In this document: positions 1-19,835 of the stretch, in pieces | Layout of the letters: the number at the start of each line of letters is the position of its first letter | Numbering within the stretch: position 1 is the first letter of the stretch | From: a virus | Lineage: Duplodnaviria; Heunggongvirae; Uroviricota; Caudoviricetes | DNA length: 19,835 nt | Virus record (IMG/VR): IMGVR_UViG_2713897055_000003 | Reading direction: 5' to 3' (one strand) | Notes under the pieces: model-generated | The model's input: only the letters and a program-made list of their open reading frames with translations | What the model was told of the DNA's origin: nothing | Database searches by the model: none | Position numbers and translations under genes: made by a program

Positions 1-2192
<2,192 letters not shown>

Positions 2193-2212
<20 letters not shown>

Positions 2213-3512
2213 TCTCCCGCATATTGCCAGCATGGCTTTTAATGAGCCGCTGATGCTTGAACCCGCCTATGCGCGGGTTTTCTTTTGTGCGCTTGCAGGC
2301 CAGCTTGGGATCAGCCGCCTGACGGATGCGGTGTCCGGCGACAGCCTGACTGCCCAGGAGGCACTCGCGACGCTGGCATTATCCGGTGATGATGACGGAC
2401 CACGACAGGCCCGCAGTTATCAGGTCATGAACGGCATCGCCGTGCTGCCGGTGTCCGGCACGCTGGTCAGCCGGACGCGGGCGCTGCAGCCGTACTCGGG
2501 GATGACCGGTTACAACGGCATTATCGCCCGTCTGCAACAGGCTGCCAGCGATCCGATGGTGGACGGCATTCTGCTCGATATGGACACGCCCGGCGGGATG
2601 GTGGCGGGGGCATTTGACTGCGCTGACATCATCGCCCGTGTGCGTGACATAAAACCGGTATGGGCGCTTGCCAACGACATGAACTGCAGTGCAGGTCAGT
2701 TGCTTGCCAGTGCCGCCTCCCGGCGTCTGGTCACGCAGACCGCCCGGACAGGCTCCATCGGCGTCATGATGGCTCACAGTAATTACGGTGCTGCGCTGGA
2801 GAAACAGGGTGTGGAAATCACGCTGATTTACAGCGGCAGCCATAAGGTGGATGGCAACCCCTACAGCCATCTTCCGGATGACGTCCGGGAGACACTGCAG
2901 TCCCGGATGGACGCAACCCGCCAGATGTTTGCGCAGAAGGTGTCGGCATATACCGGCCTGTCCGTGCAGGCTGTGCTGGATACCGAGGCTGCAGTGTACA
3001 GCGGTCAGGAGGCCATTGATGCCGGACTGGCTGATGAACTTGTTAACAGCACCGATGCGATCACCGTCATGCGTGATGCACTGGATGCACGTAAATCCCG
3101 TCTCTCAGGAGGGCGAATGACCAAAGAGACTCAATCAACAACTGTTTCAGCCACTGCTTCGCAGGCTGACGTTACTGACGTGGTGCCAGCGACGGAGGGC
3201 GAAAACGCCAGCGCGGCGCAGCCGGACGTGAACGCGCAGATCACCGCAGCGGTTGCGGCAGAAAACAGCCGCATTATGGGGATCCTCAACTGTGAGGAGG
3301 CTCACGGACGCGAAGAACAGGCACGCGTGCTGGCAGAAACCCCCGGTATGACCGTGGAAACGGCCCGCCGCATTCTGGCCGCAGCACCACAGAGTGCACA
3401 GGCGCGCAGTGACACTGCGCTGGATCGTCTGATGCAGGGGGCACCGGCACCGCTGGCTGCAGGTAACCCGGCATCTGATGCCGTTAACGATTTGCTGAAC
3501 ACACCAGTGTAA
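2193..3512 (+). CDS. C: Head maturation protease / scaffold gpC (S49, ClpP/SppA-like peptidase family), GTG start
   Basis: GTG at 2193 preceded by strong RBS gaggaggagaag; product begins VTAELRNLPHIASMAFNEPLMLEPAYARVFF..., recognised as lambda gpC (439 aa). The six-frame ORF begins further upstream at 2058, but that part overlaps B and matches no known protein. Confidence 0.9.
2907..3512 (+). CDS. Nu3: Capsid scaffolding protein Nu3, in-frame internal start within C
   Basis: ATG at 2907 in the C frame (MDATRQMFAQKVSAYTGLSVQAVLDTEAAVYS...), sharing the C stop at 3510-3512; matches the lambda C/Nu3 nested arrangement. Confidence 0.8.
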   Translation: MDATRQMFAQKVSAYTGLSVQAVLDTEAAVYSGQEAIDAGLADELVNSTDAITVMRDALDARKSRLSGGRMTKETQSTTVSATASQADVTDVVPATEGENASAAQPDVNAQITAAVAAENSRIMGILNCEEAHGREEQARVLAETPGMTVETARRILAAAPQSAQARSDTALDRLMQGAPAPLAAGNPASDAVNDLLNTPV

Positions 3513-3521
3513 GGGATGTTT

Positions 3522-3854
3522 ATGACGAGCAAAGAAACCTTTACCCATTACCAGCCGCAGGGCAACAGTGACCCGGCTCATACCGCAACCGCGCCCGGCG
3601 GATTGAGTGCGAAAGCGCCTGCAATGACCCCGCTGATGCTGGACACCTCCAGCCGTAAGCTGGTTGCGTGGGATGGCACCACCGACGGTGCTGCCGTTGG
3701 CATTCTTGCGGTTGCTGCTGACCAGACCAGCACCACGCTGACGTTCTACAAGTCCGGCACGTTCCGTTATGAGGATGTGCTCTGGCCGGAGGCTGCCAGC
3801 GACGAGACGAAAAAACGGACCGCGTTTGCCGGAACGGCAATCAGCATCGTTTAA
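3522..3854 (+). CDS. D: Head decoration protein gpD
   Basis: 110-aa product [110 protein letters not shown], recognised as lambda gpD. Confidence 0.95.
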
Positions 3855-3875
3855 CTTTACCCTTCATCACTAAAG

Positions 3876-3896
3876 GCCGCCTGTGCGGCTTTTTTT
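3876..3896 (+). terminator. Intrinsic-terminator-like hairpin between D and E (GC stem gccgc/gcggc, 4-nt loop, T7 run)
   Basis: Sequence aggccgcctgtgcggcttttttt read directly; 5-bp GC stem followed by 7 T residues, immediately before the E start. Confidence 0.5.
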
Positions 3897-3909
3897 ACGG
3901 GATTTTTTT

Positions 3910-4935
3910 ATGTCGATGTACACAACCGCCCAACTGCTGGCGGCAAATGAGCAGAAATTTAAGTTTGATCCGCTGTTTCTGCGTCTCTTTTTCCGTGAGA
4001 GCTATCCCTTCACCACGGAGAAAGTCTATCTCTCACAAATTCCGGGACTGGTAAACATGGCGCTGTACGTTTCGCCGATTGTTTCCGGTGAGGTTATCCG
4101 TTCCCGTGGCGGCTCCACCTCTGAATTTACGCCGGGATATGTCAAGCCGAAGCATGAAGTGAATCCGCAGATGACCCTGCGTCGCCTGCCGGATGAAGAT
4201 CCGCAGAATCTGGCGGACCCGGCTTACCGCCGCCGTCGCATCATCATGCAGAACATGCGTGACGAAGAGCTGGCTATTGCTCAGGTCGAAGAGATGCAGG
4301 CAGTTTCTGCCGTGCTTAAGGGCAAATACACCATGACCGGTGAAGCCTTCGATCCGGTTGAGGTGGATATGGGCCGCAGTGAGGAGAATAACATCACGCA
4401 GTCCGGCGGCACGGAGTGGAGCAAGCGTGACAAGTCCACGTATGACCCGACCGACGATATCGAAGCCTACGCGCTGAACGCCAGCGGTGTGGTGAATATC
4501 ATCGTGTTCGATCCGAAAGGCTGGGCGCTGTTCCGTTCCTTCAAAGCCGTCAAGGAGAAGCTGGATACCCGTCGTGGCTCTAATTCCGAGCTGGAGACAG
4601 CGGTGAAAGACCTGGGTAAAGCGGTGTCCTATAAGGGGATGTATGGCGATGTGGCCATCGTCGTGTATTCCGGACAGTACGTGGAAAACGGCGTCAAAAA
4701 GAACTTCCTGCCGGACAACACGATGGTGCTGGGGAACACTCAGGCACGCGGTCTGCGCACCTATGGCTGCATTCAGGATGCGGACGCACAGCGCGAAGGC
4801 ATTAACGCCTCTGCCCGTTACCCGAAAAACTGGGTGACCACCGGCGATCCGGCGCGTGAGTTCACCATGATTCAGTCAGCACCGCTGATGCTGCTGGCTG
4901 ACCCTGATGAGTTCGTGTCCGTACAACTGGCGTAA
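3910..4935 (+). CDS. E: Major capsid protein gpE
   Basis: 341-aa product starting MSMYTTAQLLAANEQKFKFDPLFLRLFF..., recognised as lambda gpE; the six-frame ORF starts 9 codons upstream at 3883, inside the hairpin, so ATG 3910 is preferred. Confidence 0.95.
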   Translation: MSMYTTAQLLAANEQKFKFDPLFLRLFFRESYPFTTEKVYLSQIPGLVNMALYVSPIVSGEVIRSRGGSTSEFTPGYVKPKHEVNPQMTLRRLPDEDPQNLADPAYRRRRIIMQNMRDEELAIAQVEEMQAVSAVLKGKYTMTGEAFDPVEVDMGRSEENNITQSGGTEWSKRDKSTYDPTDDIEAYALNASGVVNIIVFDPKGWALFRSFKAVKEKLDTRRGSNSELETAVKDLGKAVSYKGMYGDVAIVVYSGQYVENGVKKNFLPDNTMVLGNTQARGLRTYGCIQDADAQREGINASARYPKNWVTTGDPAREFTMIQSAPLMLLADPDEFVSVQLA

Positions 4936-6330: not shown

Positions 6331-6725
6331 AACATACTGAACTCCGTGCAGCCGTACTGGATGCACTGGAGAAGCATGACACCGGGGCGACGTTTTTTTT
6401 TGATGGTCGCCCCGCTGTTTTTGATGAGGCGGATTTTCCGGCAGTTGCCGTTTATCTCACCGGCGCTGAATACACGGGCGAAGAGCTGGACAGCGATACC
6501 TGGCAGGCGGAGCTGCATATCGAAGTTTTCCTGCCTGCTCAGGTGCCGGATTCAGAGCTGGATGCGTGGATGGAGTCCCGGATTTATCCGGTGATGAGCG
6601 ATATCCCGGCACTGTCAGATTTGATCACCAGTATGGTGGCCAGCGGCTATGACTACCGGCGCGACGATGATGCGGGCCTGTGGAGTTCAGCCGATCTGAC
6701 TTATGTCATTACCTATGAAATGTGA
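6327..6725 (+). CDS. U: Tail tube terminator protein gpU
   Basis: 132-aa [71 protein letters not shown]..., recognised as lambda gpU; contains a T9 homopolymer at 6393-6401. Confidence 0.9.
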
Positions 6726-7488: not shown

Positions 7489-7911
7489 ATGTTCCTGAAA
7501 ACCGAATCATTTGAACATAACGGTGTGACCGTCACGCTTTCTGAACTGTCAGCCCTGCAGCGCATTGAGCATCTCGCCCTGATGAAACGGCAGGCAGAAC
7601 AGGCGGAGTCAGACAGCAACCGGAAGTTTACTGTGGAAGACGCCATCAGAACCGGCGCGTTTCTGGTGGCGATGTCCCTGTGGCATAACCATCCGCAGAA
7701 GACGCAGATGCCGTCCATGAATGAAGCCGTTAAACAGATTGAGCAGGAAGTGCTTACCACCTGGCCCACGGAGGCAATTTCTCATGCTGAAAACGTGGTG
7801 TACCGGCTGTCTGGTATGTATGAGTTTGTGGTGAATAATGCCCCTGAACAGACAGAGGACGCCGGGCCCGCAGAGCCTGTTTCTGCGGGAAAGTGTTCGA
7901 CGGTGAGCTGA
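7489..7911 (+). CDS. G: Tail assembly chaperone gpG
   Basis: 140-aa ORF MFLKTESFEHNGVTVTLSELSALQRIEHLALMKRQAEQAESD..., recognised as lambda gpG; RBS ggagag upstream. Confidence 0.95.
   Translation: MFLKTESFEHNGVTVTLSELSALQRIEHLALMKRQAEQAESDSNRKFTVEDAIRTGAFLVAMSLWHNHPQKTQMPSMNEAVKQIEQEVLTTWPTEAISHAENVVYRLSGMYEFVVNNAPEQTEDAGPAEPVSAGKCSTVS
7887..7893 (+). promoter_or_regulatory. Programmed -1 ribosomal frameshift slippery heptamer G GGA AAG (G to G-T fusion)
   Basis: Heptamer gggaaag at 7887-7893 is in the correct X XXY YYZ register relative to the G frame (codons GGA 7888-7890, AAG 7891-7893); the -1 frame is open from 7893 to 8327. This matches the known lambda G/T frameshift site. Confidence 0.85.
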
Positions 7912-8327
7912 GTTTTGCCCTGAAACTGGCGCGTGAGATGGGGCGACCCGACTGGCGTGCCATGCTTGCCGGGATGTCATCCACGGAGTATGCCGACTGG
8001 CACCGCTTTTACAGTACCCATTATTTTCATGATGTTCTGCTGGATATGCACTTTTCCGGGCTGACGTACACCGTGCTCAGCCTGTTTTTCAGCGATCCGG
8101 ATATGCATCCGCTGGATTTCAGTCTGCTGAACCGGCGCGAGGCTGACGAAGAGCCTGAAGATGATGTGCTGATGCAGAAAGCGGCAGGGCTTGCCGGAGG
8201 TGTCCGCTTTGGCCCGGACGGGAATGAAGTTATCCCCGCTTCCCCGGATGTGGCGGACATGACGGAGGATGACGTAATGCTGATGACAGTATCAGAAGGG
8301 ATCGCAGGAGGAGTCCGGTATGGCTGA
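7893..8327 (+). CDS. T: Tail assembly protein T portion, expected to be expressed only as a G-T fusion via -1 frameshift
   Basis: -1 frame ORF relative to G, open 7893..8327, encoding ...FDGELSFALKLAREMGRPDWRAMLAGMSSTEYADWHRFYSTHYFHDVLLDMHFSGLTYTV...; its end overlaps the H start. Confidence 0.85.
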   Translation: MFDGELSFALKLAREMGRPDWRAMLAGMSSTEYADWHRFYSTHYFHDVLLDMHFSGLTYTVLSLFFSDPDMHPLDFSLLNRREADEEPEDDVLMQKAAGLAGGVRFGPDGNEVIPASPDVADMTEDDVMLMTVSEGIAGGVRYG

Positions 8328-13283: not shown

Positions 13284-16200
13284 ATGGGTAAAGGCAGCAG
13301 TAAGGGGCATACCCCGCGCGAAGCGAAGGACAACCTGAAGTCCACGCAGCTGCTGAGTGTGATCGATGCCATCAGCGAAGGGCCGGTTGAAGGTCCGGTG
13401 GATGGATTAAAAAGCGTGCTGCTGAACAGTACGCCGGTGCTGGACAGTGAGGGGAATACCAATATATCCGGCGTCACGGTGGTGTTCCGGGCCGGTGAGC
13501 AGGAGCAGACACCGCCGGAGGGATTTGAATCCTCCGGCTCCGAGACGGTGCTCGGTACAGAAGTGAAATATGACACGCCGATCACCCGGACCATCACGTC
13601 GGCAAACATTGACCGTCTGCGTTTTACTTTCGGCGTGCAGGCACTGGTGGAAACCACCTCAAAGGGGGACAGGAATCCATCGGAAGTCCGCCTGCTGGTT
13701 CAGATACAACGTAACGGTGGCTGGGTGACGGAAAAAGACATCACCATTAAGGGTAAAACCACTTCACAGTATCTGGCCTCGGTGGTGGTGGATAACCTGC
13801 CGCCGCGCCCGTTCAGTATCCGGATGCGCAGGATGACGCCGGACAGCACCACAGACCAGCTGCAGAACAAAACGCTCTGGTCGTCATACACCGAAATTAT
13901 CGATGTGAAACAGTGCTACCCGAACACGGCACTGTTCGGCGTGCAGGTGGACTCGGAGCAGTTCGGCAGCCAGCAGGTGAGCCGTAATTATCATCTGCGC
14001 GGGCGTATTCTGCAGGTGCCGTCAAATTATAACCCGCAGACGCGGCAATACAGCGGTATCTGGGACGGAACGTTTAAACCGGCATACAGCAACAACATGG
14101 CCTGGTGTATGTGGGATATGCTGACCCATCCGCGCTACGGCATGGGGAAACGTCTTGGTGCAGCGGATGTAGATAAATGGGCGCTGTATGTCATCGGCCA
14201 GTACTGCGACCAGTCGGTGCCGGACGGCTTTGGCGGCACGGAGCCGCGCATCACCTGTAATGCGTACCTGACCACACAGCGCAAGGCGTGGGATGTGCTC
14301 AGTGATTTCTGCTCGGCGATGCGCTGTATGCCGGTATGGAACGGGCAGACGCTGACGTTCGTGCAGGACCGACCATCAGATAAGGTGTGGACCTATAACC
14401 GCAGTAATGTGGTGATGCCGGATGATGGCGCGCCGTTCCGCTACAGCTTCAGCGCCCTGAAGGACCGCCATAATGCCGTTGAGGTGAACTGGATTGACCC
14501 GAACAACGGCTGGGAGACGGCGACAGAGCTTGTTGAAGATACGCAGGCCATTGCCCGTTACGGTCGTAACGTCACGAAGATGGATGCCTTTGGCTGTACC
14601 AGCCGGGGGCAGGCGCACCGCGCCGGGCTGTGGCTGATTAAAACGGAACTGCTGGAAACGCAGACCGTGGACTTCAGCGTGGGTGCGGAAGGGCTTCGCC
14701 ATGTACCGGGGGATGTCATTGAAATCTGCGATGATGACTATGCGGGTATCAGCATCGGCGGGCGCGTGCTGGCGGTGAACAGCCAGACCCGGATGCTGAC
14801 GCTCGACCGTGAAATCACGCTGCCATCCTCCGGTACCACGCTGATAAGCCTGGTTGACGGAAGTGGCAATCCGGTCAGCGTGGAGGTCCAGTCCGTCACC
14901 GACGGCGTGAAGGTAAAAGTGAGCCGTGTTCCTGACGGCGTTGCCGGATACAGCGTGTGGGGGCTGAAGCTGCCGACGCTGCGCCAGCGCCTGTTCCGCT
15001 GCGTGAGTATCCGTGAGAACGATGACGGCACGTATGCCATCACCGCCGTGCAGCATGTACCGGAAAAAGAGGCCATCGTGGATAACGGGGCGCACTTTGA
15101 CGGCGACCAGAGCGGCACGGTGAATGGTGTCACGCCGCCAGCAGTGCAGCATCTGACCGCCGAAGTCACTGCAGACAGCGGGGAATATCAGGTGCTGGCG
15201 CGATGGGACACGCCGAAGGTGGTGAAGGGCGTGAGCTTCCTGCTTCGCCTGACCGTGGCAGCGGATGACGGCAGTGAGCGGCTGGTCAGCACGGCCCGGA
15301 CGGCGGAAACCACTTACCGCTTCACACAACTGGCTCTGGGGAACTACAGGCTGACAGTCCGGGCAGTAAATGCGTGGGGGCAGCAGGGCGATCCGGCGTC
15401 GGTATCGTTCCGGATTGCCGCACCGGCAGCGCCGTCGCGGATTGAGCTGACGCCGGGCTATTTTCAGATAACCGCCACGCCGCATCTTGCGGTTTATGAT
15501 CCGACGGTACAGTTTGAGTTCTGGTTCTCGGAAAAGCGGATTGCGGATATCAAGCAGGTTGAAACCACAGCACGCTATCTTGGCACGGCGCTGTACTGGA
15601 TAGCCGCCAGTATCAATATCAGGCCGGGCCATAATTATTATTTTTACGTTCGCAGTGTGAACACCGTTGGCAAATCGGCATTCGTGGAGGCTGTTGGTCA
15701 GCCGAGTGATGACGCATCCGGCTATCTGGATTTTTTCAAAGGCGAGATAGGGAAAACCCATCTGGCTCAGGAGCTGTGGACGCAGATTGATAACGGTCAG
15801 CTTGCGCCTGACCTGGCTGAAATCAGGACATCCATTACGGATGTCAGCAATGAAATCACACAGACCGTCAATAAGAAACTGGAAGACCAGAGTGCAGCGA
15901 TCCAGCAGATACAGAAGGTTCAGGTTGATACAAATAATAATCTGAACAGCATGTGGGCTGTGAAGCTGCAGCAGATGCAGGACGGACGCCTTTATATCGC
16001 GGGTATCGGTGCCGGTATTGAGAACACCCCCGACGGCATGCAGAGTCAGGTGCTGCTGGCGGCAGACAGGATTGCGATGATTAATCCTGCAAATGGCAAC
16101 ACAAAACCGATGTTTGTTGGTCAGGGTGATCAGATATTCATGAATGAAGTGTTCCTGAAATATCTGACGGCTCCCACCATTACCAGCGGCGGTAATCCTC

Positions 16201-17483: not shown

Positions 17484-17494
17484 GTGGGGTGAAT

Positions 17495-19723
17495 ATGGCA
17501 GTAAAGATTTCAGGTGTACTGAAAGACGGCACAGGAAAACCGGTACAGAACTGCACAATCCAGCTGAAAGCAAAACGTAACAGTACCACGGTGGTGGTGA
17601 ACACGCTGGCCTCAGAAAATCCGGATGAAGCCGGGCGTTACAGCATGGACGTTGAGTACGGTCAGTACAGCGTTATTCTGTTGGTGGAAGGATTCCCGCC
17701 GTCACATGCCGGGACCATCACCGTGTATGAAGATTCCCGACCCGGTACGCTGAATGATTTTCTCGGTGCCATGACGGAGGATGATGCCCGTCCTGAGGCA
17801 CTGCGCCGTTTTGAACTGATGGTGGAAGAGGTGGCGCGTAACGCGTCCGCGGTGGCACAGAACACGGCAGCCGCGAAGAAGTCAGCCAGCGATGCCAGCA
17901 CATCAGCCCGTGAGGCGGCAACCCATGCGACTGATGCTGCAGGCTCAGCACGCGCAGCCAGCACGTCAGCCGGACAGGCTGCTTCGTCGGCTCAGTCAGC
18001 GTCTTCCAGCGCAGGAACGGCATCAACAAAGGCCACTGAAGCATTAAAAAGTGCTGCCGCTGCAGAGTCCTCAAAAAGCGCGGCAGCTACCAGTGCCAGT
18101 GCCGCGAAAACGTCAGAAACGAATGCTGCAGCGTCACAACAATCAGCAGCCACTTCTGCATCCACCGCGACTACGAAAGCGTCAGAAGCTGCCACCTCAG
18201 CCCGGGATGCGTCGGCTTCAAAAGAGGCGGCAAAATCATCAGAAACGAACGCATCCTCGAGCGCCAGTAGCGCAGCTTCCTCGGCAACGGCGGCAGCAAA
18301 TTCCGCGAAGGCGGCAAAAACGTCCGAGACGAACGCCAGGTCTTCTGAGACGGCAGCGGGACAGAGCGCCTCAGCTGCGGCAGGCTCAAAAACAGCGGCT
18401 GCGTCGTCTGCCAGTGCCGCGTCAACAAGTGCCGGGCAGGCCTCAGCCAGTGCCATCGCCGCCGGAAAATCGGCAGAAAGCGCCGCATCATCCGCTTCAA
18501 CAGCCACAACGAAGGCTTGCGAAGCCACTGAACAGGCCAGCGCAGCAGCGAGGTCAGCTTCCGCAGCGAAGACATCCGAAACGAACGCGAAAGCGTCGGA
18601 AACCAGCGCAGAATCCTCAAAAACGGCTGCCGCATCGTCCGCCAGTTCGGCGGCGTCATCGGCCTCATCGGCGTCTGCTTCAAAAGATGAGGCGACCAGA
18701 CAAGCGTCAGCAGCGAAGGGCAGCGCCACGACGGCATCCACGAAGGCAACAGAGGCTGCTGGCAGTGCGACGGCGGCAGCACAGAGCAAGAGTACGGCAG
18801 AATCCGCAGCAACGCGCGCCGAGACAGCAGCAAAACGGGCAGAGGATATTGCATCCGCTGTGGCGCTTGAGGATGCGAGCACGACGAAAAAGGGGATAGT
18901 ACAGCTCAGTAGTGCGACTAACAGCACTTCCGAGTCACTGGCGGCAACACCAAAAGCCGTTAAGGCCGCGTATGACCTGGCTAACGGGAAATACACCGCA
19001 CAGGATGCAACGACAGCACAGAAAGGGATAATCCAGCTAAGCAGCGCGACCAACAGCACGTCTGAAACGCTTGCCGCGACACCAAAGGCAGTAAAAACAG
19101 CCTATGACAATGCTGAGAAACGTCTGCAGAAAGATCAGAACGGTGCGGATATCCCTGGCAAAGACACCTTTACGAAAAATATTGGTGCCTGCCGTGCCTT
19201 TGGTGGGTCAGTAAGCACAATAACAGGAAACTGGACGACTGCACAGTTTATCGAGTGGCTGGATTCTCAGGGAGCATTTAACCATCCCTACTGGATGTGC
19301 AAGGGTTCCTGGTCTTATGGCAATAATAAAATCATTACTGATACTGACTGCGGTAATATTCATCTCGCCGGAGCTGTCATTGAAGTAATGGGGATAAAGT
19401 CAGCGATGACGATCCGCATTACCACACCGACCACCTCCACTGGTGGTGGAACAACTAACGCCCAGTTTACCTATATTAATCACGGAACAGATTATTCACC
19501 TGGCTGGCGAAGGGACTATAACTCCAGAAATAAGCCAACGGCATCAGAGATCGGGGCGTTACCGTCAGGTGGAACAGCAGTATCATCAGTTAATCTGTCT
19601 TCAAAAGGTCGGGTAACCGCGCTGACAGACAATACGCAGGGGGCAACAGGTCTTGAGTTATACGAGGTGTATAACAACGGATATCCAACAGCGTATGGAA
19701 ATGAAGGCAGGCGATTGCTTTAA
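17495..19723 (+). CDS. stf: Side tail fibre protein Stf-like
   Basis: Product begins [62 protein letters not shown]..., recognised as the lambda Stf N-terminus; long Ala/Ser/Thr-rich shaft, tandem 'KGI(V/I)[11 protein letters not shown](S/T)LAATPKAVK' repeats and a distinct C-terminal domain. ATG 17495 is preferred over the GTG at 17489 given by the ORF track. Confidence 0.85.
17840..18860 (+). repeat. Low-complexity Ala/Ser/Thr-rich repeat region encoding the Stf shaft (recurring AAKTSETNA / SSETNA units)
   Basis: Recurrent gcg/gca/tcx/acg codon blocks and repeated motifs such as acgtcagaaacgaatgc and tccgagacgaacgcc; this same composition generates large spurious ORFs in other frames and on the minus strand. 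Confidence 0.7.
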
Positions 19724-19835
19724 AGCGGGTCTGCATATCGGGATTGGCTTTGTTGGCATTGGCCTTGTGATTGGCTTAATGCTGGATTCCATTGGTCCGG
19801 CGGCGAAAGCGATGGCGGAAAATTTCGACCTGAAT
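19701..19835 (+). CDS. 5' fragment of a gene for a hydrophobic membrane protein, running off the window end; resembles the N-terminal region of PTS galactitol-family EIIC permeases (GatC/SgcC-like)
   Basis: Open frame from ATG 19701 (alternative ATG 19695) to the window end: [45 protein letters not shown]; Gly/Ile/Leu-rich transmembrane-like segment, not Tfa-like. The family assignment is from memory and unverified. Confidence 0.4.

What the first reader, a model, noticed from the sequence alone, without database searches (positions are those of the whole stretch)
19690..19835. Abrupt junction after stf: a transporter-like gene start replaces the expected tail fibre assembly gene
In lambda-type phages stf is followed by tfa. 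Here stf ends at 19723 and, overlapping its last 7-9 codons in another frame, an ORF begins (ATG 19695 or 19701) encoding [45 protein letters not shown]. This is a Gly/Ile/Leu-rich membrane segment that looks like the N-terminal region of a PTS galactitol-family EIIC (GatC/SgcC-like), not Tfa. It suggests a prophage-chromosome boundary or a deletion fusing the phage to a host transporter gene; the Stf C-terminus (...NEGRRLL) may itself be encoded by non-phage DNA.
Basis: inference. Interest (0 to 1): 0.6.

Follow-up and report, generated by a model that had tools for sequence, protein, structure and literature searches.

The report
Tail-fibre/gatC join at contig end
A phage tail-fibre gene switches abruptly, mid-gene, into the middle of the E. 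coli galactitol transporter gene gatC just 133 bases before this draft-genome contig ends; this is most likely an assembly chimera, not a prophage boundary or new biology.

Summary
Phage homology stops at 19702, after codon 736 of a roughly 1023-codon stf. From 19701 the DNA is 100% identical to E. coli gatC nt 91-225 (codons 31-75). The overlap is 2 bp (AT). The Stf tail EGRRLL* is gatC DNA read out of frame. The "transporter gene start" is GatC Met31, not the native start.

The window is the whole contig JNNK01000053.1 (19,835 bp) of draft assembly GCA_000749525.1, so the gatC piece is only 133-135 nt long and ends the contig.

The join was found in none of:
- 5,426 complete E. coli genomes
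- the phage and plasmid collections
- IMG/VR, GTDB representatives and JGI metagenomes
- the 5.8-billion-cluster protein collection

The junction shows no att site, tRNA, IS element or extended homology. Related prophages sit at five or more chromosomal sites, none near gat, and stf is always followed by tfa. The contig also carries two homopolymer overcalls typical of flow sequencing.

Best reading: a chimeric read overhang on a repeat-bounded contig (about 0.7). A real illegitimate-recombination event (about 0.2) cannot be excluded without reads or the other contigs. Interest is low either way.

The parts
17495..19702 (+). 5' 72% of a lambdoid (Qin/StfQ-type) side tail fibre gene, codons 1-736 of about 1023. 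It has the N-terminal domain PF08400 and two Phage_fiber_2 repeats. It lacks the Collar domain and the distal receptor-binding end.
   Evidence: 100% identity up to 19702 with stf in many E. coli prophages. Pfam on truncated versus intact protein. Four intact alleles all continue ATCATTCACCTGAAAGGG after this point.
19701..19702 (.). Breakpoint microhomology AT, the only bases shared by both parents. No longer similarity within +/-300 nt.
   Evidence: Three-way alignment. Base-by-base extension and blastn-short of the two parental regions.
19703..19723 (+). Six codons plus stop (EGRRLL*) that close the stf frame. This is gatC DNA read in the wrong frame, so the 'Stf C-terminus' is a by-product of the join.
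   Evidence: Translation, alignment, codon arithmetic.
19701..19835 (+). gatC nt 91-225 (GatC residues M31-N75, part of the EIIC-GAT membrane domain). It is truncated at its 5' end by the join and at its 3' end by the end of the contig.
   Evidence: 100% identity to 'PTS galactitol transporter subunit IIC' in about 5,000 genomes. Position within gatC taken from L002, CDS 2911-4266, match from 3001. Pfam PF03611.
19695..19835 (+). Open frame from ATG 19695 (ME-) or ATG 19701 (native Met31). No Shine-Dalgarno-like purine run at a usable distance: upstream is CAACGGATATCCAACAGCGT / ATATCCAACAGCGTATGGAA.
   Evidence: The judgement on the ribosome-binding site is by eye, not by experiment.

Best explanation
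The stf::gatC join is most likely not a feature of the chromosome. It is probably a chimeric overhang at the end of a draft contig.

The contig is a 19.8-kb lambdoid late-gene block, from the 3' end of the terminase gene to stf. This kind of sequence is present in several near-identical copies in E. coli genomes, and short-read assemblers break on it. The assembler stopped inside stf. The last 133 nt come from one or a few library molecules in which an stf fragment had been joined to a gatC fragment, by ligation or template switching during library preparation. Nothing competed with that overhang at a dead end, so it stayed in the consensus.

Shown here: the exact breakpoint, the mid-gene position in both genes, the 2-bp overlap, the contig ending 133 nt later, the absence of the join everywhere else, and platform-type homopolymer errors in the same contig.

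Inferred: that the supporting reads are chimeric, that intact gatB-gatC and stf-tfa exist elsewhere in the same assembly, and that the assembly was made with Ion PGM and MIRA like its accession neighbours.
For: 1. The window equals the complete contig JNNK01000053.1, 19,835 bp, of GCA_000749525.1. The host segment is therefore only 133-135 nt, less than one read length, and terminal. gatC is single-copy in nearly all genomes (median 1 place per genome). A clonal, real junction should therefore have assembled on into gatD and gatR.

2. The join was found nowhere else. No place covers at least 80% of the query in 5,426 complete E. coli genomes. It is absent from the phage and plasmid collections. 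The exact 34-mer is absent from GTDB representatives, IMG/VR and JGI metagenomes. No protein carries the ...YGNEGRRLL end; the best hit covers 96% of the query and stops at YGN. The chimeric protein itself is not on record.

3. There is no mechanistic signature. No tRNA, no att-like repeat, no IS element, only 2 bp of microhomology and no nearby similarity. Position 19702 is not a mosaic boundary of stf.

4. This stf segment is a known assembly breaker. It lies on hundreds of 277-770-bp contigs in draft assemblies. The same late block occurs at several loci, and up to 15 places per genome.

5. The contig carries two long-homopolymer overcalls not seen in any of the six related prophage loci aligned here. 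A9 versus A7 at 203-211 frameshifts the terminase gene. T9 versus T6 at 6393-6401 adds a codon to gpU. This is typical of flow sequencing. The WGS prefixes on either side (JNNI, JNNJ, JNNL) are Ion PGM + MIRA drafts at 23-36x (PMC4192381).
Against: No reads and no other contig of the assembly could be examined, so read support was not tested.

The 135-nt gatC tail is error-free. This argues mildly against a single poor Ion Torrent read. By my own rough estimate, about 1-2 errors would be expected in 135 nt of single-read coverage.

As I recall, MIRA and most assemblers filter chimeric reads, so more than one read may support the join. This point is from memory and was not checked.

A 2-bp microhomology is equally typical of genuine illegitimate recombination.

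The link of JNNK to the Ion PGM/MIRA batch rests only on accession adjacency. No paper names JNNK.
Confidence: 0.7

Rival explanations
1. A real illegitimate-recombination event in this strain joined stf codon 736 to gatC codon 31. Two forms are possible. One is a duplication or transposition of a gatC'-gatD... segment into the prophage, or a large tandem duplication, which leaves a second intact gatC. The other is a large inversion or deletion. Either way the product is a tail-fibre-less prophage and a promoterless gatC lacking its first 30 codons.
For: The junction is clean and error-free on both sides, with 2-bp microhomology. This is typical of short-homology-independent illegitimate recombination. 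If gatC were present twice (an intact copy plus the fusion), an overlap assembler would also stop within one read length of the join, matching the 133-nt tail. An inversion between oppositely oriented stf and gatC, or a tandem duplication between same-oriented ones, would give exactly this sense-to-sense join (geometric reasoning only, not tested).
Against: The join is unique among all collections searched. A clonal deletion or inversion gives a single path and does not explain why the contig stops 133 nt later. No related prophage lies near gat. In the one genome inspected, no prophage lies between gatY and metG about 17 kb upstream; metG is essential (my own knowledge), which rules out a simple deletion from known att sites. 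Fixed duplications that insert host DNA into a prophage by non-homologous joining are rare, whereas chimeric library molecules are present in every library (general knowledge).
Confidence: 0.2
2. The contig represents a phage genome, or a transducing-type variant, that captured host gat DNA in place of its stf 3' end, tfa and the downstream accessory region. This would resemble lambda gal/bio transducing phages or moron acquisition.
For: The region downstream of the tail fibre genes is where lambdoid phages carry variable cargo, as seen in relatives (RnlAB, NleG, methyltransferase). Illegitimate recombination with a few bp of homology is how specialised transducing phages arise (established knowledge).
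Against: Specialised transduction picks up DNA next to the integration site, and gat is not next to any site where this phage type is found. The captured gene would be a 5'-truncated, promoterless fragment. No phage or IMG/VR record carries the join. Only 133 nt of evidence exists.
Confidence: 0.04
3. The join is an ordinary prophage-chromosome attachment boundary (attR).
For: Phage DNA on one side and core chromosomal DNA on the other.
Against: The break lies inside stf, 864 nt before its normal end, and tfa plus everything up to attR is missing. It also lies inside gatC at codon 31. There is no tRNA or att-like repeat. No other genome has a prophage in gatC at this point.
Confidence: 0.01

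Closest known systems
E. coli gatC (PTS galactitol-specific EIIC, Pfam PF03611 EIIC-GAT) in the gatYZABCD operon
   Same: Window 19701-19835 is 100% identical to gatC nt 91-225. The peptide matches PF03611 profile positions 23-67.
   Different: Only 45 of 451 codons are present. The native start, the first 30 codons, gatB and the rest of the upstream operon are replaced by phage DNA. The fragment ends with the contig.
Lambdoid side tail fibre and its assembly chaperone (stf-tfa, e.g. stfQ-tfaQ-pinQ of the Qin-type prophage in E. coli ATCC 8739)
   Same: 19.7 kb are collinear at 96-98.5% identity with these late regions. The Stf N-terminal domain and fibre repeats are present.
   Different: Stf is cut at codon 736 and lacks the Collar domain and distal tip. 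There is no tfa and no pin.
Chimeric or low-support contig ends in short-read draft assemblies
   Same: A foreign segment shorter than one read sits at the very end of a repeat-bounded contig. The join is seen nowhere else. Other platform-type errors occur in the same contig.
   Different: Read-level support was not examined. The tail is free of sequencing errors.
Illegitimate-recombination junctions of specialised transducing phages (lambda gal / lambda bio)
   Same: A phage-host join inside genes with only a few bp of microhomology and no site-specific signature.
   Different: Those join the phage to DNA flanking its attachment site. Here the host partner is not adjacent to any site used by this phage type.

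Membership tests
PTS EIIC-GAT / gatC gene | Sequence homology to EIIC-GAT (PF03611) and identity to gatC | tested here: met
   PF03611 at E=2.2e-10 on 45 aa. 135/135 nt identical to annotated gatC.
PTS EIIC-GAT / gatC gene | Complete coding sequence with its native start (451 aa) and gatYZAB upstream | tested here: not met
   Homology starts at gatC nt 91 (Met31). Upstream is stf. The sequence stops at codon 75.
Lambdoid side tail fibre Stf | N-terminal prophage tail fibre domain (PF08400) and fibre repeats | tested here: met
   PF08400 at E=8.5e-72. Phage_fiber_2 matched twice.
Lambdoid side tail fibre Stf | C-terminal Collar domain and distal receptor-binding region, followed by tfa | tested here: not met
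   The Collar domain (residues 798-845 in intact Stf) and 287 C-terminal residues are absent. There is no tfa.
Prophage attachment junction (attL/attR) | Junction lies outside phage structural genes, at a core sequence repeated at both prophage ends, often in a tRNA or a known att locus | tested here: not met
   The break lies inside stf and inside gatC. No tRNA. No att-like repeat in 19400-19835. No genome has a prophage at this gatC position.
Real illegitimate-recombination rearrangement | Junction supported by independent reads at genomic depth, with reciprocal or partner junctions or a copy-number change | not testable with these tools
   Neither the reads nor the other contigs of GCA_000749525.1 are reachable. 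Only this contig was retrieved.
Real illegitimate-recombination rearrangement | Short or no microhomology and no site-specific signature | tested here: met
   2-bp AT overlap. This does not discriminate: about 16% of random joins show 2 bp or more (my own calculation).
Chimeric contig end (assembly artefact) | Foreign segment no longer than a read, at the contig terminus, with no continuation | tested here: met
   133-135 nt of gatC, then the contig ends. The window is the whole contig.
Chimeric contig end (assembly artefact) | Junction not reproducible in any independent assembly | tested here: met
Chimeric contig end (assembly artefact) | Both parental sequences are intact elsewhere in the same assembly, and junction reads are few or duplicates | not testable with these tools
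   This needs the other JNNK01 contigs and the raw reads.

The most novel reading that the evidence does not exclude
The join is real. An illegitimate-recombination event (inversion, duplication or insertion) in this E. coli strain fused a resident lambdoid prophage's tail-fibre gene to gatC. In one step it disabled the phage's side tail fibre and tfa module and cut the galactitol operon between gatB and gatC. This would be a prophage-mediated route to loss of the gat operon.
Probability: 0.2. Interest if true: 0.25.

Novelty: not a real feature. Interest (0 to 1): 0.07.

Why it matters
It matters mainly for data hygiene. Taken at face value, the join would be annotated as a truncated tail fibre with a novel C-terminus plus an N-terminally truncated transporter. 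It could also be read as a prophage boundary or as phage capture of host DNA. Knowing that it sits 133 nt from the end of a draft contig, and exists nowhere else, prevents that.

If it were real, it would be a single-strain rearrangement that inactivates two well-known genes. That would be of local interest for the strain's galactitol phenotype and the prophage's viability, but it would reveal no new mechanism.

Tried and rejected
**Searches for the join elsewhere.** All were negative: complete E. coli genomes, phages, plasmids, GTDB representatives, IMG/VR and JGI metagenomes. Exact look-ups of the chimeric Stf (742 and 744 aa) found nothing. A search of the large protein collection with the last 150 aa gave no hit covering the EGRRLL tail.

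**Reaching other contigs of the assembly.**
- The J and U proteins led only back to this contig.
- The Lom and tape-measure alleles are too common; they returned unrelated complete genomes.
- The strain was not identified. JNNK and GCA_000749525 appear in no searchable paper. Only the neighbouring accessions were found.

**Is 19702 a natural stf mosaic or inversion boundary?** Rejected. Four intact alleles run on identically past it. The nearby palindrome-like GTTATAC...GTATAAC does not have the geometry of Hin/Gin/Pin crossover sites as I recall them (by eye and from memory only).

**Could longer stf/gatC similarity cause a spurious overlap?** Rejected. The longest shared words within +/-300 nt are 7-10 nt and not collinear.

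**att or tRNA signatures and tandem repeats.** None.

**Simple prophage-to-gat deletion.** Rejected on map grounds (plus prophage locations).

**A frameshifted Stf (P0001) ending just after YGN.** It looked like a second event at the same spot. It is a 1-nt A insertion in another assembly and has nothing to do with gatC.

Full report
**What is in the sequence**

The last 2.3 kb of the window hold a lambdoid side tail fibre gene. It starts at ATG 17495 (an in-frame GTG lies at 17489) and stops at TAA 19721-19723. Two ATGs at 19695 and 19701, in another frame, open an ORF that reads [47 protein letters not shown] and runs off the end.

**Where exactly the two sequences meet**

- megablast of 19300-19835 against 5,426 complete E. 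coli genomes gives thousands of 100% matches to prophage tail fibre genes. All of them stop at window position 19702. No genome has a place covering at least 80% of the query.
- The last 156 nt match 'PTS galactitol transporter subunit IIC' at 100% from 19701 to 19835 in about 5,000 genomes.
- A three-way alignment and a base-by-base check show that only AT (19701-19702) is shared by both parents.
- In an intact gat operon the match starts at nt 91 of gatC, so ATG 19701 is codon Met31. gatY, gatZ, gatA, gatB and the first 30 codons of gatC are missing.
- On the phage side the break falls after codon 736. Intact alleles run on for 864 nt (ATCATTCACCTGAAAGGG...) and are followed by tfa.
- Pfam confirms that the truncated Stf keeps the N-terminal domain and the fibre repeats but loses the Collar domain. 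It also places the 45-aa host peptide at positions 23-67 of the EIIC-GAT profile.
- The final residues EGRRLL and the stop are gatC DNA read out of frame.
- Neither ATG has a convincing ribosome-binding site upstream (by eye).

An exact look-up of the J protein shows that the window is the complete contig JNNK01000053.1 (19,835 bp) of the draft assembly GCA_000749525.1 (confirmed). The host segment is therefore only 133 nt (135 with the overlap), and the contig then ends. The record's protein set has no gene called after lom.

The rest of the contig runs from the 3' end of the terminase gene through portal, head, tail, J and lom to stf. It is collinear at 96-98.5% identity with late regions of prophages that sit at several different chromosomal sites:
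- the Qin site in ATCC 8739
- next to bio
- next to ompT
- next to smpB and next to zinT

In every one of them stf is followed by tfa, and none lies near gat. E. coli genomes hold a median of 3 and up to 15 matching places for this block. The stf segment just before the break is found on hundreds of 277-770-bp contigs in other draft assemblies. This is the usual sign of a collapsed repeat on which assemblers break.

**Is the join seen anywhere else?**

No. It is absent from complete E. coli genomes, the phage records and the plasmid records. The exact 34-mer across the join is absent from GTDB species representatives, IMG/VR and JGI metagenome contigs. The chimeric protein is not on record. 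A search of the large protein collection with its last 150 residues finds no protein that covers the EGRRLL tail; the best hit is identical up to ...AYGN and then differs. That hit ends in a frameshifted tail caused by a 1-nt insertion at the same spot in another assembly, unrelated to gatC.

**Mechanistic signatures**

There is no tRNA, no att-like direct repeat, no tandem repeat and no IS end. No similarity between the two parental regions exceeds chance words of 7-10 nt. Position 19702 is not a mosaic boundary of stf.

A simple deletion from a prophage to gatC is hard to place on the map. In a complete genome the 17 kb upstream of gatY (fbaB, yegT-X, thiDM, rcn, yehA-E, apbC) holds no prophage and ends at metG, an essential gene by general knowledge.

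**Quality of the contig**

Two long homopolymers differ from all six related prophage loci aligned here.
- A9 instead of A7 at 203-211 shifts the frame of the terminase gene 3' end. This is why the record calls only a 74-aa ORF there.
- T9 instead of T6 at 6393-6401 adds one codon to gpU and makes that allele unique in the collection.

Long-homopolymer overcalls are the typical error of flow sequencing. The WGS prefixes on either side of JNNK (JNNI, JNNJ, JNNL) belong to STEC O91:H21 drafts made with Ion PGM reads and MIRA 4.0.5 at 23-36x (PMC4192381). JNNK itself is named in no paper I could search, so membership of the same batch is an inference.

**Interpretation**

A real, clonal junction into a single-copy operon should have assembled on into gatD and gatR. 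A contig that stops less than one read length after an otherwise unique join is expected in two cases. Either (a) the join is carried by a chimeric library molecule that overhangs a dead-end contig, or (b) gatC exists in two contexts in the sample.

Chimeric molecules are present in every library (general knowledge), and contig ends in repeats are where they survive. Fixed duplications that insert host DNA into a prophage by non-homologous joining are rare. I therefore put about 0.7 on an assembly artefact, about 0.2 on a genuine illegitimate-recombination event, about 0.04 on a phage carrying captured gat DNA, and about 0.01 on an att boundary.

Several points count against the artefact reading:
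- The 135-nt tail has no sequencing error.
- Assemblers filter chimeras (from memory).
- A 2-bp overlap does not discriminate. By my own calculation, about 16% of random joins show 2 bp or more.

**Comparison with what is known, and verdict**

Both parents are textbook genes: the stf of a Qin/lambda-type prophage and gatC of the galactitol PTS. The fragment passes the homology tests for both families and fails the completeness and context tests for both. It fails every test for an attachment site.

Whatever its origin, it encodes no functional novelty. If real, it would be a tail fibre without its receptor-binding end or chaperone, plus a promoterless transporter fragment lacking its first 30 residues.

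The identification of the host gene and of the non-phage Stf tail is right. 'Gene start', 'after stf' and 'prophage boundary' are not. The suggestion to exclude chimeric assembly was the key one.

Interest is low. The decisive tests are inspection of the other JNNK01 contigs, read mapping across 19702|19703, and a junction PCR.

Noticed in passing
window 203-211: A9 homopolymer where six related prophages have A7. It shifts the frame of the terminase large-subunit 3' end (frame 2 before, frame 1 after), so the record calls only a 74-aa ORF at 187-411. Probably a flow-sequencing overcall.
   Followed up: yes
window 6393-6401: T9 homopolymer where relatives have T6. This in-frame extra codon makes gpU 132 aa instead of 131. 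This U allele, like the J allele, occurs on no other contig in the collection.
   Followed up: partly
L028 (ABPMOK010000060.1) about 6740, equivalent to window 19702/19703: Another assembly has a 1-nt A insertion at exactly the same stf position (GGAAAT^A^ATC), splitting stf into 255-aa and 282-aa ORFs. It looks like coincidence or a sequencing error, not a recombination hotspot.
   Followed up: partly
window about 19270-19700: In the protein collection this stf segment is represented by many 'partial' proteins on 277-770-bp contigs, with clusters of 130-355 members. It is a repeat that routinely fragments E. coli draft assemblies.
   Followed up: no
window 19523-19538 and 19771-19786: A 16-nt imperfect inverted repeat (88% complementary) with one arm in stf and one in the gatC tail. 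Probably chance; no link to the join was established.
   Followed up: no
window 7489-7911 and 7893-8327: Overlapping gpG-like and gpT-like ORFs (PF06894, PF06223) in the arrangement of the lambda G/GT programmed -1 frameshift. The slippery site was not inspected.
   Followed up: no
window 14376-15761 (-) and 17992-19059 (-): Long antisense ORFs (461 aa inside J; 355 aa inside the Ala/Ser-rich part of stf). These are most likely non-coding by-products of the composition of the sense genes.
   Followed up: no
L003, L005, L006, L012, L013: Near-identical lambdoid late-gene blocks sit at five or more chromosomal sites in different strains (Qin site, bio, ompT, smpB, zinT). Stf length varies from 774 to 1176 aa, and the cargo after tfa differs (pin invertase, RnlAB, methyltransferase, GGDEF protein).
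   Followed up: no
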